Positions 59,930 through 64,000 of a stretch of 64,000 nt of DNA are shown here, piece after piece. Where the stretch lies: positions 44,544,001-44,608,000 of the forward strand of contig CP068257.2 in the NCBI GenBank assembly GCA_009914755.4. Reading direction: 5' to 3'. The stretch is from the human T2T-CHM13v2.0 reference genome, Homo sapiens. Position numbers and translations under genes: made by a program. The notes under the pieces are model-generated. The model saw only the letters and a list, made by a program, of their open reading frames with translations. It had not been told where the DNA came from and searched no databases. The first letter of the stretch is position 1; every line of letters starts with the position of its first letter.

Positions 59930-60218
59930 TTAGAGACAGGGTCGCACTCTGTCACCCAGGCTAGAGTGCAGTAGTACAACCAGCTCATTGCAACCCAGAA
60001 CTCCTGGGCTCAAGTGATCCTCCTGCCTTACTAGCCTCCAAGTAGCTGAGACTACAGGTGCATATCATCACACCTGGCTAATATTTTATTGTTTTTGTAG
60101 AGACCAGGTCTCACTATGTTGCCCAGGCTGGCCTCGAACTCTTAGGTTGAAGTGGTCCTTCTACCTCAGTCTCCCAAAGTGCTGGAATTGCAGGCGTGAG
60201 CCACTCACTGTGCCTGGC
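59930..60218 (-). mobile_element. Old Alu (AluJ-like, minus)
   Basis: Reverse complement of a diverged Alu consensus (..gccaggcacagtgagtggctcacgcctgcaattccagcactttgggagactgagg..). Confidence 0.75.
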
Positions 60219-60319: not shown

Positions 60320-60622
<303 letters not shown>

Positions 60623-61186: not shown

Positions 61187-61336
<150 letters not shown>

Positions 61337-62064
61337 TCATGACTGCTAAGACCAGGCCCCTTTCCTCCTGAGCACCTCACTCCAACAGGGAGCTACCTCC
61401 TTCTCATAAAAACACCCCCTGGAAAGGCCATTCCTCCCAGGCCCCCATGGGGAACTTTGGGAACAGGGCCAGAAGGAACGTCAGCCACAGCACAGGCGAT
61501 GCTCCCTGCCTAGGGCCTGTAGAGCCCACTCAGCCACGCCTGGCTCCCATGACCACCTGGGTCTGAGAAACACCAGACACTGCACAGCACCTCAGGAAGG
61601 TCTCCCCCAAGTGCCCTGAAGGTCCAAAAGGAACCAGCATTTTAGATCAGTGGGCCTTCCATGAGGGGAGACTGTTGGTCTTGCTTTAACATCTGCTGGG
61701 AAGAAAAATACAAAATTGGTCACCCTTGCATGTGGTAATACCTACTTATTTATTTATATTTTTCTGTTTCAAAATTTTTTTACAAGCATATGCCGCTTTG
61801 CAAATGTCAGGGGGGAGGCAGAGACAATAAATATTATCCACTAAGAACCTTCCGTCCCCAGCCTGGTCCTCTCAGGCATGGTGCTCACAGGCCACCCTCC
61901 ACCTTCACTCCCCATGCTTGGTTCCATCAGCCATGTGCCCCCAGAGCCTGGCACGGGACAGGTCTCAGGGCAGACCCCAGCCACATGTGCCATGGAATGA
62001 ATACCTGACTCTGGCTTAGAGCATCAGAAGCCCTAGTGTTCAAACCATCCAGACATGCCCTGTG

Positions 62065-63030
62065 TGGGCGGCAAGCCACCCAGGCACCAAGGCAAGAGAC
62101 CGAGGACACGAGCTGTTCCAGTATAATAAAATATAAAACAAGAATAGTTATACCAGATATAGATCTTAGAGATATATGAATATCATTAATCATTAGTTTG
62201 TAGTAATTACTCTTTATCCCAATATTATAATAATCCTCGCTCTACAATCATAACCTAGGAAAAACCAGGCCATACAGAGATAGGAGCTGAGGGGACATAG
62301 TGAGGTGTGACCAGAAGACAGGAGTGCGAGCCTTCTGTTATGCCCGGACGGGGCCAGCAAAAGGGCTCCTTGGTCTAGTGGTAACGCCAGCGTCTGGGAA
62401 GACGCCCGTTGCCGAGCGGACGGTGGTCTAGCGGTAGCGAAAAGTGTCAAGGAACAACACCCGCTACTTAGCAGACCGGGAAAGGGAGGCTCCCTTTCCC
62501 CGGGGGAATTTAGAGAAGACTCTGCTCCTCCACCTCTTGTGGAGGGCCTCACATTAGTCAGACCTGCCCGCAGTTATCCGGAGGCCTGTCTCCCTGTGAT
62601 GCTGTGCTTCAGTGGTCACGCTCCTAGTCCGCCTTCATGTTCCATCCTGTACACCTGGCTCTGCCTTCTAGATAGCAGTAGTCAATTAGTGAAAGTACTA
62701 AAAGTCTCTGATATGCAGAAATAATGGCATAAGTTGTCTTTCTCTGTGTCTCCTCTCTCTGCCTCGGCTGCCAGGCAGGGAAGGGCCCCCTGTCCAGTGG
62801 ACACGTGACCCACGTGACCTTACCTATCACTGGAGATGACTCACACTCTTTACCCTGCCCCTTTTGCTTTGTATCCAATAAATAACAGCACAGCCAGACA
62901 TTCGGGGCCACTACTGGTCTCCGTGCATTGGTGGCAGTGGTCCCCCGGGCCCAGCTGTCTTTTATCTCTTTGTCTTGTGTCTTTATTTCTACACTCTCTC
63001 ATCGCCGCACACAGGGAGAGACCCACCGAC
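62065..63030 (+). mobile_element. Unclassified LTR-like repeat (begins TGTGTGGG, internal AATAAA at ~62880); copy 1 of a duplicated element
   Basis: The 62065-62490 segment recurs at 63577-64000 (~90% identity by eye). Carries a possible polyA signal (ccaataaataacagcac) and a TG start typical of LTRs. Family not identified. Confidence 0.35.
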
Positions 63031-63387
63031 CCTGTGGGGCTGGTCCCTACACCCTGGAAGAAGGGCAGATGGACTCAGAGACAGCGCACAGGGTCACATA
63101 AAATGAGCCATCCCAAAACAAGCCCGTCTCTTTCCTAACAGTTATAATGTTGTTAGGACGGGGAAATGTGCAGAGAGGAGCAGAGCCAGCATCTTCCTGA
63201 TTTTACAGGCAAGGAAACTGAGGCTCAGCCAGTAAATGGTGGGGCTAGGAGGTCAGACCCGATTCAGTGTTCACCAGAGTGCTGCCCAATGCCGCACAGG
63301 CCACAGTCAATGGGAGCTGTCTACATAGCATCATGGACCAAGAGCATTTTCCAAAGTCCAAAAAGAGGGAAGAAAAGCTCCAACTCA

Positions 63388-63577
63388 GCCAGGTGCAGTG
63401 GCTCACGCCTGTAATCCCAGCACTTTGGGAGGCTGGGGGTGGGGGGTGGGGGATCACGAGGTCAGGAGTTCGAGACCAGCCTGACCAACAAGGTGAAAAC
63501 CTGTCTCTACCAAAAATACAAAAATTAGCCAGGCATGGTGGCACATGGCTGTAATCCCAGCTACTCGAGAGGCTGTG
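63388..63577 (+). mobile_element. Truncated Alu abutting the second LTR-like copy
   Basis: CAGCCAGGTGCAGTGGCTCACGCCTGTAATCCCAGCACTTTGGGAGGCTGGGGG... Confidence 0.8.
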
Positions 63578-64000
63578 GGTGGCAAGCCACCTTGGTGCCA
63601 AGGCAAGAGACCGAGGGCACGAGCTGTTCCAGTATAATAAAATATATAAAACAACAAGAGTTATACTAGATCTAGATCATACATATGATTATATATGAAT
63701 ATCATTAATCATTAGTTTGTAGCAATTACTCTTTATTCCAATATTATAATAATCCTCGCTCTACAATCATAACCTAGGAAAAACCAGGCCATACAGAGAT
63801 AGGAGCTGAAGAGACATAGTGAGAAGTGACCAGAAGACAAGAGTGAGAGCCTTCTGTTAAGCCCGGACAAGGCCACTAGAGGGCTCCTTGGTCTAGCGGT
63901 AACGCCAGCATCTGGGAAGAGGCCCGTTGCCAAGCGGACCCAACCGTGGTCTAGCGGTAGCGTCAGTGTCAAGGAAAAACACCCGCTACTTAGCATACCG
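63577..64000 (+). repeat. Second copy of the LTR-like segment (runs off the window edge)
   Basis: tgggtggcaagccaccttggtgccaaggcaagagaccgagggcacgagctgttccagtataataaaat... parallels 62065-62490. Confidence 0.4.

What the first reader, a model, noticed from the sequence alone, without database searches (positions are those of the whole stretch)
62065..64000. Duplicated ~430-bp LTR-like segment (copies at 62065 and 63577) containing tandem tRNA A-box-like motifs (TGGTCTAGTGGTA / TGGTCTAGCGGTA)
The segment begins with TG, carries an AATAAA plus a GT-rich downstream region (ccaataaataacagcacagcc...ggtctccgtgc) like an LTR R/U5, and includes two tRNA D-loop-like boxes ~55 bp apart. I could not assign a family. 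The second copy starts exactly at the end of a truncated Alu and continues past the window edge, so this is either an LTR-internal-LTR mini-provirus or a ~1.5-kb tandem duplication inside the 5' LSS introns.
Basis: seen in the sequence. Interest (0 to 1): 0.5.

Follow-up and report, generated by a model that had tools for sequence, protein, structure and literature searches.

The report
Two LTR13 retroviral LTRs in LSS intron
The duplicated segment is two separate insertions of LTR13, a known human endogenous-retrovirus long terminal repeat (HERV-K HML-4), in an intron of the lanosterol synthase gene; the "tRNA-like boxes" are part of the LTR13 consensus and are not tRNA genes, so the finding is ordinary.

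Summary
The repeat is real. Copy 1 is 62063-63051 (989 bp, TGTGGG...CCCTACA). Copy 2 starts at 63574 and runs off the window. Both match the published Repbase LTR13 consensus (1007 bp): copy 1 at 92.1% over positions 1-1007, copy 2 at 94.4% over 1-422. LTR13A matches only about 70-73%. LTR13 is the LTR of HERVK13 (HERV-K HML-4, HERV-K-T47D), an ERV2/ERVK family, not ERV1 or ERVL.

Copy 1 is a solo LTR with its own 5-bp target-site duplication (CCCTG). No primer-binding site, polypurine tract or retroviral internal sequence lies between the copies. The two copies carry different family variants and are less alike (91.5%) than either is to most unrelated copies. They are therefore independent insertions, not a mini-provirus or a 1.5-kb tandem duplication. 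Copy 2 landed inside an AluS-like element. Its 3' end could not be retrieved.

Both GGTCTAGCGGTA boxes are in the LTR13 consensus. They come from a 53-54-bp tandem duplication in U3 that LTR13A lacks. ARAGORN and Rfam find no tRNA, and there is no B box.

One curiosity: the first box region matches 18 of the first 20 nt of human tRNA-Pro. This is suggestive only.

Both LTRs are antisense to LSS.

The parts
62058..62062 (.). 5' target-site duplication of copy 1 (CCCTG)
   Evidence: The same 5 bases directly abut both ends of the LTR. A chance match at fixed positions is about 1 in 1024. ERVK families show 5-6-bp duplications (table in PMC1779541).
62063..63051 (+). LTR13 solo LTR, copy 1 (989 bp, TGTGGG...CCCTACA), antisense to LSS
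   Evidence: 92.1% identity to Repbase LTR13 positions 1-1007. The ends coincide with the ends of homology in 10 other copies. The base after the LTR starts CCCTGGAAG..., not a primer-binding site. K2P distance to the consensus is 0.058.
63052..63056 (.). 3' target-site duplication of copy 1 (CCCTG)
62366..62418 (+). U3 tandem-duplication unit 1 (LTR13 consensus 311-363). It contains box TGGTCTAGTGGTA at 62371-62383 and hairpin GCGTCT-GGGA-AGACGC at 62390-62405.
   Evidence: Unit 1 and unit 2 share 38 of 54 aligned positions. LTR13A has a single unit and a 54-nt gap here. The box is AGCGG in the consensus and in all other copies; copy 1 has the CpG-to-TpG change AGTGG.
62419..62472 (+). U3 tandem-duplication unit 2 (consensus 364-416), containing box TGGTCTAGCGGTA at 62424-62436
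62364..62383 (+). 20-mer resembling the first 20 nt of human tRNA-Pro (consensus form GGCTCCTTGGTCTAGCGGTA, 18 of 20)
   Evidence: Local alignment score 30 against shuffles of 17.9 +/- 2.1; 1 of 2000 shuffles reaches it; nine other human tRNAs score 16-20. The tRNA sequence comes from the PMC12217144 methods. No tRNA is called by ARAGORN or Rfam.
62478..62500 (.). Near-perfect palindrome GGGAAAGGGAG-N-CTCCCTTTCCC in U3
   Evidence: (fold z-score -4.4). It is present in the LTR13 consensus.
62877..62882 (+). LTR13 polyadenylation signal AATAAA (consensus position 826), followed by T-rich U5
   Evidence: For HML-4, polyadenylation 69 or 84 nt downstream of AATAAA is reported by Baust et al. 2000, as cited in PMC2664473.
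63385..63573 (+). Alu (AluS-like by my reading), cut off at its 3' side by the insertion of copy 2
   Evidence: Rfam SRP/Alu-domain matches at 63388-63509 and 63528-63593. Internal Alu monomer repeat and inverted matches to another Alu at 60041-60205. The junction reads ...CTCGAGAGGC|TGTGGGTGG.
63574..64000 (+). LTR13 copy 2, first 422 consensus positions, cut by the window end. Boxes at 63889-63901 and 63947-63959, with a 5-bp ACCCA insertion between the units.
   Evidence: 94.4% identity to LTR13 positions 1-422. It carries a different 5' variant set from copy 1. K2P distance 0.047.
61187..61297 (-). Context: LSS exon encoding aa 107-143. The LTRs lie in the intron upstream of it, on the opposite strand.
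   Evidence: tblastn of the LSS sequence. Another exon of the same series matches PDB 1W6K lanosterol synthase residues 217-261 at E = 4e-27.

Best explanation
Two independent germ-line integrations of the endogenous betaretrovirus-like element HERVK13 (HERV-K HML-4, the HERV-K-T47D group) landed about 0.5 kb apart. Both lie in the same orientation, in an intron near the 5' end of human LSS, antisense to the gene. Each is now seen as an LTR13 long terminal repeat.

Copy 1 (62063-63051) is a complete solo LTR. The inferred history is that a provirus integrated, the integrase made a 5-bp target duplication (CCCTG), and recombination between the 5' and 3' LTRs later deleted the internal genes. 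Copy 2 (63574 onward) integrated into an older Alu and is most probably also a solo LTR. Its 3' end lies outside the window.

The paired 'tRNA A-box-like' motifs are inherited from the LTR13 master sequence. They mark a 53-54-bp tandem duplication in U3 that the sister subfamily LTR13A lacks. Such duplications are common in retroviral U3 enhancers (background knowledge). The motifs are not tRNA genes or Pol III promoters.

Shown here: family identity, element boundaries, the target duplication of copy 1, the absence of proviral sequence, the variant differences between copies, the origin of the boxes, and the orientation. Inferred: the provirus-to-solo-LTR history, an age of roughly 20-35 million years (from 4-6% divergence from the consensus and an assumed rate), and present-day neutrality.
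For: Family identity:
- The Repbase LTR13 consensus printed in Text S1 of PMC2664473 aligns to copy 1 over 1-1007 at 92.1% and to copy 2 over 1-422 at 94.4%. LTR13A aligns at only 70-73%.
- LTR13 and LTR13A pair with HERVK13, which is HML4 (PMC5753468).

The family behaves as a retroviral LTR:
- Twelve contigs from one metagenome scan carry copies 90-94% identical to copy 1, most full-length at about 1006 bp. Homology stops at 62063 and 63051.
- L007 continues after the LTR with TGGCGCTCTGACGTGGGGC, a tRNA-Lys-type primer-binding site by my reading.
- L005 and L006 have AAAAGGGGGGAGA directly upstream, a polypurine tract by my reading. L008 has a 6-bp duplication, CCCACT.
- The sequence upstream of the L006 LTR translates to a HERV-K-type Env with a transmembrane domain. 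It is 81% identical to a macaque 'ERVK13-1 Env-like' protein and about 60% identical to HML-2-named Envs.

Independent insertions:
- Copy 1 is flanked by CCCTG on both sides.
- Positions 63052-63384 match nothing in the proviral contigs. No HERVK13-like internal sequence occurs anywhere in the window.
- Copies 1 and 2 differ in 50 of 430 columns. At 15 of these, each state is shared with at least 2 other family copies. Only 2 columns are shared-derived relative to the consensus.
- Their 91.5% identity is lower than that of either copy to most unrelated copies.

The boxes:
- Both are in the consensus and in every copy.
- LTR13A has one unit, with a 54-nt gap.
- ARAGORN finds no tRNA. Rfam finds none at E <= 10. 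No B box within 2 mismatches occurs in either LTR. There is no cloverleaf fold.
Against: The 3' part of copy 2 lies beyond the window and could not be retrieved. Its solo status and target duplication are therefore untested.

Copy 1's duplication is 5 bp, where 6 bp is more usual for ERVK. Five-bp cases are listed for HERVK10 and HERVK14.

Some metagenome contigs look chimeric: L004 and L010 share a 3' flank but not a 5' flank, and so do L005 and L011. Single-contig flank inferences and variant counts therefore carry some noise.

No RepeatMasker or Dfam run was possible. The family name rests on alignment to a consensus reprinted in a paper supplement.
Confidence: 0.93

Rival explanations
1. 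Copy 2 is not a solo LTR but the 5' LTR of a full or partial HERVK13 provirus that extends beyond the window. Copy 1 remains an independent solo LTR.
For: Copy 2 has a non-proviral 5' flank (an Alu). That fits a 5' LTR as well as a solo LTR. Nothing past position 422 of the LTR is visible.
Against: From general knowledge of HERV families, solo LTRs far outnumber proviruses, and HML-4 has few proviruses. An intronic provirus of about 9 kb inside a housekeeping gene would be unusual. There is no direct test either way.
Confidence: 0.07
2. LTR-internal-LTR mini-provirus: copy 1 is the 5' LTR and copy 2 the 3' LTR of one heavily deleted provirus.
For: Same orientation, same family, only 522 bp apart.
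Against: Copy 1 is bracketed by its own CCCTG duplication. There is no primer-binding site after copy 1 and no polypurine tract before copy 2. The spacer is unique DNA plus an Alu and has no match to proviral leader or env. The copies carry different family variants and share only 2 derived states, whereas the two LTRs of one provirus start out identical.
Confidence: 0.02
3. Tandem segmental duplication of a roughly 1.5-kb unit (LTR plus 522 bp) within the LSS intron.
For: The start-to-start spacing of 1511-1522 bp is constant along the shared part.
Against: Homology begins exactly at the first base of the LTR in both copies, and the upstream flanks are unrelated. A duplication breakpoint would have to coincide with the LTR terminus. 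Fifteen of the 50 differences are variants that segregate among unrelated family copies, including a 2-bp indel. Random post-duplication mutation would not reproduce these. The copies are not each other's nearest relatives.
Confidence: 0.02
4. The boxes mark a genuine tRNA gene or Pol III-transcribed tRNA-derived unit embedded in the element.
For: TGGTCTAGTGG is one mismatch from the A-box consensus TRGCNNAGTGG. The first 20 nt match tRNA-Pro at 18 of 20.
Against: ARAGORN at default and relaxed settings finds nothing at the boxes, in the window copies or in the LTR13 and LTR13A consensus sequences. The Rfam tRNA model reports nothing at E <= 10, even on a 151-nt search. No B box within 2 mismatches occurs in either LTR. 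There is no cloverleaf, and fold energies for unit 1 are no better than shuffles. The better A-box match in copy 1 is a private CpG-to-TpG mutation of the consensus AGCGG.
Confidence: 0.01

Closest known systems
LTR13 (Repbase/Dfam), the LTR of HERVK13, also called HERV-K(HML-4) or HERV-K-T47D
   Same: Full-length collinear match (92% and 94%), consensus length about 1007 bp, TGTGGG...CCCTACA termini, AATAAA at consensus position 826, the U3 tandem duplication with both GGTCTAGCGGTA boxes, the palindrome and the double CACGTGAC motif.
   Different: Only copy-specific decay. Copy 1 has small deletions (6, 4, 6 and 5 bp) and 55 substitutions. Copy 2 has a 5-bp ACCCA insertion between the boxes.
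LTR13A, the sister subfamily of HML-4 LTRs
   Same: Same termini, same R/U5 architecture, and one copy of the box unit (GGCTCCTTGGTCAAGCGGTAACGCC...).
   Different: Only 70-73% identity to the window copies, and it lacks the 54-nt second unit. The window copies are not LTR13A.
LTR5_Hs/LTR5 of HERV-K(HML-2)
   Same: Same class (ERV2/ERVK), similar length, TGTGGG...CCCTACA termini, and a similar CAATAAATA ... GGTCCCCCGGG ... T-rich U5 layout. The LTR5 sequence is recalled from memory and was not tested here. A related provirus has an Env about 60% identical to HML-2-named Envs.
   Different: U3 is unrelated. The window copies match LTR13, not LTR5.
Human tRNA-Pro (TGG/AGG/CGG isoacceptors)
   Same: 18 of the first 20 nt are identical to LTR13 consensus 308-327. 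A 5-bp hairpin with TGGG in its loop follows at about the anticodon-arm distance (the hairpin is read directly from the sequence).
   Different: No 3' strand of the D stem, no T arm, no 3' acceptor strand, no B box, and no call by any tRNA finder.

Membership tests
LTR13 (HERVK13/HML-4 LTR) | Collinear nucleotide similarity to the LTR13 consensus over its whole length, better than to any sister subfamily | tested here: met
   Copy 1: 92.1% over 1-1007. Copy 2: 94.4% over 1-422, the window limit. LTR13A: 70-73%. The consensus comes from PMC2664473 Text S1.
LTR13 (HERVK13/HML-4 LTR) | Retroviral LTR termini TG...CA | tested here: met
   TGTGGG at 62063 and 63574; CCCTACA ending at 63051. The 3' end of copy 2 is not in the window.
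LTR13 (HERVK13/HML-4 LTR) | Short (5-6 bp) target-site duplication flanking the insertion | tested here: met
   Copy 1: CCCTG on both sides. Not testable for copy 2. Related copies: L008 6 bp CCCACT, L001 5 bp TACCC.
LTR13 (HERVK13/HML-4 LTR) | Family members flank a betaretrovirus-like internal region (tRNA-Lys primer-binding site, polypurine tract, HERV-K-type env) | tested here: met
   Seen in related loci, not in the window. L007 has a primer-binding-site-like TGGCGCTCTGACGTGGGGC; L005 and L006 have a polypurine tract; the L006 Env/TM is 81% identical to an 'ERVK13-1 Env-like' protein.
LTR13 (HERVK13/HML-4 LTR) | Official RepeatMasker/Dfam call at this locus | not testable with these tools
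   No Dfam or RepeatMasker tool is available. The reprinted Repbase consensus was used instead.
tRNA gene or pseudogene | Cloverleaf structure recognised by tRNA models | tested here: not met
   ARAGORN finds none in the window copies or in the consensus sequences, even with -ps. Rfam reports no tRNA at E <= 10 on 2.5 kb or on 151 nt.
tRNA gene or pseudogene | Internal Pol III promoter: an A box plus a B box 30-60 nt downstream | tested here: not met
   A-box-like at 1-2 mismatches. No GGTTCGANNCC within 2 mismatches in either LTR; the only hit in the scanned stretch (62063-64000) is the Alu's own B box at 63467.
Provirus (LTR-internal-LTR) | Primer-binding site after the 5' LTR, polypurine tract before the 3' LTR, retroviral internal sequence, and one target duplication around the whole unit | tested here: not met
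   CCCTGGAAG... follows copy 1 and an Alu precedes copy 2. The spacer has no match to proviral sequences. Copy 1 has its own target duplication.
Tandem segmental duplication | Homology not bounded by element termini, and the copies being each other's closest relatives | tested here: not met
   Homology starts at LTR base 1 in both copies. Copy 1 to copy 2 identity is 91.5%, lower than either copy to most other family copies, and 15 differences are shared family variants.

The most novel reading that the evidence does not exclude
The U3 region of HML-4 LTRs (LTR13 and LTR13A) may contain an ancient captured 5' portion of host tRNA-Pro. The inferred route is template switching to a co-packaged tRNA during minus-strand synthesis. 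The segment would comprise the 5' acceptor strand, the D-loop region and a degenerate anticodon-arm hairpin with TGGG in its loop. In LTR13 it was then tandemly duplicated.

Evidence: 18 of 20 identity anchored at tRNA position 1. Only 1 of 2000 shuffles reaches the score, while nine other tRNAs score at background. In about 1.1 million characters of retroviral LTR training sets, the 12-mer GGCTCCTTGGTC occurs only in LTR13 and LTR13A.

Caveats: the match was found post hoc. After correction for about 25-50 tRNA families, p is only about 0.01-0.03. No T arm or 3' acceptor strand survives.
Probability: 0.25. Interest if true: 0.35.

Novelty: already known. Interest (0 to 1): 0.1.

Why it matters
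It matters little beyond annotation. LTR13 solo LTRs are catalogued repeats, and intronic, antisense-oriented copies are the usual surviving configuration. The useful outcome is negative: there is no new tRNA gene, no mini-provirus and no segmental duplication in the 5' part of LSS. The box pair is explained by a U3 tandem duplication that separates LTR13 from LTR13A. HML-4 LTRs are reported to supply polyadenylation signals to cellular transcripts (Baust et al. 2000, as cited in PMC2664473). These two copies face away from LSS, so their AATAAA is not on the LSS sense strand. The tRNA-Pro resemblance is a minor curiosity about how retroviral U3 regions acquire sequence.

Tried and rejected
**Extending the sequence past 64000 failed**
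- Exact-product look-ups of five window ORFs found nothing.
- A protein search with window-derived LSS exons returned no human LSS entry that could be traced to a genomic locus.
- Two genome-contig scans were empty.
- The single metagenome scan found 12 other LTR13 copies but not this locus.

**Naming the family**
- Searching paper main texts for six family-specific strings found nothing.
- The name came instead from a supplement of PMC2664473.
- MER11A, B and C (HML-8) were considered because of their roughly 1-kb LTRs. They were rejected because their printed consensus sequences start TGTTGCGGGAAGTCAGG... and are unrelated.
- Cluster-member look-ups for named Env relatives gave one informative name only: the macaque ERVK13-1 Env-like protein.

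**tRNA tests**
- ARAGORN at very relaxed thresholds (-ps70, -ps80) gives scattered calls with no strict-threshold support: none overlaps the first box in any sequence; the only ones near the box region are an antisense tRNA-Val call in copy 2 (LTR positions 353-423) and an undetermined call in LTR13A (314-402), and neither recurs across the four sequences.
- RNA folds of the box units show ordinary hairpins and no cloverleaf. Only the palindrome-containing stretch folds better than shuffles.
- A literature search for tRNA-like sequences in ERV U3 regions found nothing relevant.
Full report
**Observation**

The window end holds a genuine direct repeat. Using copy 1 as a blastn query gives one further match in the whole window: 63574-64000, 88.3% identity with gaps, E = 1e-155. 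A MAFFT alignment gives 91% column identity.

Similarity starts at the same base, TGTGGG, in both copies: 62063 and 63574. The upstream sequences are unrelated. Copy 1 is preceded by unique DNA and copy 2 by an Alu. The Alu at 63385-63573 is confirmed by Rfam SRP/Alu-domain matches and by inverted matches to another Alu at 60041-60205.

The two boxes are at 62371-62383 and 62424-62436 in copy 1, and at 63889-63901 and 63947-63959 in copy 2. AATAAA is at 62877-62882.

**Genomic context**

A tblastn search with the lanosterol synthase sequence places 17 exon matches on the minus strand, from 29369 to 61297. The most 5' of these (aa 107-143) is at 61187-61297, and nothing matches aa 1-106. One exon translation hits PDB 1W6K/1W6J 'lanosterol synthase' residues 217-261 at E = 4e-27. 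The repeat therefore lies in an intron near the 5' end of LSS, on the opposite strand.

**What the element is**

One scan of metagenome contigs with a 20-mer shared by both copies returned 12 contigs, evidently human DNA in metagenome assemblies. Each holds a copy 90-94% identical to copy 1. Ten are full-length or nearly so (about 977-1009 bp); two are cut short by a contig end. In all of them homology stops at window positions 62063 and 63051. This defines a dispersed element of about 1 kb with TGTGGG...CCCTACA termini.

Three contigs show what it belongs to:
- In L007 the element is followed by TGGCGCTCTGACGTGGGGC. I read this as a tRNA-Lys-type primer-binding site.
- In L005 and L006 it is preceded by AAAAGGGGGGAGA. 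I read this as a polypurine tract.
- The 1086 bp upstream of the L006 copy translate into the C-terminal surface and transmembrane parts of a HERV-K-type Env.

A protein search with that Env found family copies at 85-93% identity. It also found a macaque protein named 'endogenous retrovirus group K member 13-1 Env polyprotein-like' at 81%, and Envs named after HML-2 members at about 60%.

The decisive step was a paper supplement. Text S1 of Benachenhou et al. 2009 (PMC2664473) reprints Repbase consensus sequences for the HML LTRs. Against these:
- LTR13 (1007 bp) aligns to copy 1 over positions 1-1007 at 92.1%.
- LTR13 aligns to copy 2 over positions 1-422 at 94.4%.
- LTR13A aligns at only 70-73%.
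- The MER11 consensus sequences are unrelated.

Repbase pairs LTR13 and LTR13A with HERVK13, which is HML4 (PMC5753468). The element is thus an ERV2/ERVK LTR, not ERV1 or ERVL.

**Relationship of the two copies**

Copy 1 is complete and directly flanked on both sides by CCCTG (62058-62062 and 63052-63056). Five-bp duplications are listed for ERVK families (PMC1779541). What follows copy 1 is not a primer-binding site, and what precedes copy 2 is not a polypurine tract. The spacer 63052-63384 matches none of the proviral contigs. No HERVK13-like leader or env sequence occurs anywhere in the window. This excludes an LTR-internal-LTR structure.

A tandem segmental duplication is also excluded. 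Its breakpoint would have to fall exactly on the LTR's first base. In addition, the differences between the copies are not random decay:
- Fifty of the 430 aligned columns differ between the copies. At 15 of these, both states are shared with at least two other family copies, including a 2-bp AT indel and a linked set of substitutions at consensus positions 82-106.
- Only two columns show a state shared by the two copies against the consensus.
- Their identity, 91.5%, is lower than that of either copy to most unrelated copies.

They are separate insertions from different source variants. Kimura distances to the consensus are 0.058 for copy 1 and 0.047 for copy 2. At commonly assumed primate neutral rates this implies roughly 20-35 million years. 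That age is inference only.

Copy 2 interrupts an Alu at ...GCTACTCGAGAGGC|TGTGGG, so it is younger than that Alu. Whether it is a solo LTR or a 5' LTR cannot be seen. All attempts to obtain sequence beyond 64000 failed. From general knowledge of solo-to-provirus ratios, solo is much the likelier.

**The 'tRNA-like' boxes**

Both boxes read GGTCTAGCGGTA in the LTR13 consensus and in essentially every copy. The AGTGG form that looks most like a tRNA A box is a private CpG-to-TpG change in copy 1.

Aligning LTR13 to LTR13A shows a 54-nt gap in LTR13A at exactly this place. The two LTR13 units (consensus 311-363 and 364-416) share 38 of 54 positions. The box pair is therefore a diverged tandem duplication within U3. 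From background knowledge, such duplications are common in retroviral enhancers.

No tRNA is present:
- ARAGORN reports none in the window, in either copy, or in the LTR13 and LTR13A consensus sequences, even with its pseudogene setting.
- Rfam reports no tRNA at E <= 10 on 2.5 kb or on a 151-nt slice.
- No B box within two mismatches exists in either LTR.
- Folding gives hairpins, not a cloverleaf.

**A side observation**

LTR13 consensus 308-327 (GGCTCCTTGGTCTAGCGGTA) matches 18 of the first 20 nt of human tRNA-Pro-TGG. That tRNA sequence was taken from the methods of PMC12217144.

The local alignment score of 30 compares with 17.9 +/- 2.1 for 2000 dinucleotide shuffles, and one shuffle reaches it. 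Nine other human tRNAs score 16-20. A 5-bp hairpin (GCGTC-TGGGAA-GACGC) follows at about the distance of an anticodon arm. Across about 1.1 million characters of LTR training sets, the 12-mer GGCTCCTTGGTC occurs only in LTR13 and LTR13A.

After allowing for the number of tRNA families, and for the match having been noticed post hoc, this is suggestive and no more. I record it as the most novel reading not excluded.

**Function**

No test of activity was possible. The LTRs are antisense to LSS, so their AATAAA is not on the LSS sense strand. HML-4 LTRs have been reported to polyadenylate cellular transcripts when in sense orientation (Baust et al. 2000, as cited in PMC2664473). The default reading is two neutral intronic passengers.

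**Verdict**

The LTR reading is right. The class guess and both structural hypotheses are wrong. This is an already-known repeat family in an ordinary configuration.

Noticed in passing
window 62364-62405 and 63882-63923; LTR13 consensus 308-349: The first 20 nt of the box region match human tRNA-Pro at 18 of 20, anchored at tRNA position 1. A 5-bp hairpin with TGGG in its loop follows. Only 1 of 2000 shuffles reaches the score, and nine other tRNAs score at background. This may be an ancient tRNA fragment captured in HML-4 U3, or it may be coincidence.
   Followed up: partly
window 60041-60205 versus 63385-63573: A pair of Alus in inverted orientation (arms 72-90% complementary) brackets the two LSS exons at 60398-60532 and 61187-61297. 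From general knowledge, this arrangement can favour back-splicing and circular RNA. Not examined.
   Followed up: no
window 62802-62818: A tandem double E-box-like motif, CACGTGACC CACGTGACC, also present in the LTR13 consensus. It is a possible bHLH-ZIP factor site in U3 near the promoter. Function not tested.
   Followed up: no
window 62478-62500: The palindrome GGGAAAGGGAG-N-CTCCCTTTCCC is conserved in LTR13 and LTR13A and folds far better than shuffles (z-scores -4.4 and -5.6 on the two strands). By my reading, the consensus core GGGAGTCTCC fits the NF-kB-type pattern GGGRNWYYCC. Copy 1 has a T-to-G change in it.
   Followed up: no
window 62214-62552 (minus strand) and 63733-63996 (minus strand): Antisense ORFs of 112 aa and 87 aa run through U3 of both LTR13 copies. 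Benachenhou et al. 2009 noted unusually long ORFs in the HML4 LTR consensus. There is no evidence here that they are coding, and exact-product look-ups found nothing.
   Followed up: partly
loci L004/L010 and L005/L011: Pairs of metagenome contigs share an identical 3' flank of their LTR13 copy but have different 5' flanks and different 5' LTR variants. This suggests assembler chimeras across the repeat, or recombinant LTRs. Flank-based inferences from single contigs need care.
   Followed up: no
window 63435-63452: The Alu's left monomer carries a G-rich expansion, (GGGGGTG) x 2.6, where the Alu consensus (recalled from memory) has GCCGAGGCGGGCGG. It may be able to form a G-quadruplex.
   Followed up: no
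window 62980-62990 (minus strand): The reverse complement of the LTR13 U5 stretch TCTTTATTTCT reads AATAAA on the LSS sense strand, so antisense LTR13 copies place a cryptic polyadenylation hexamer inside the intron. No evidence of use was sought.
   Followed up: no
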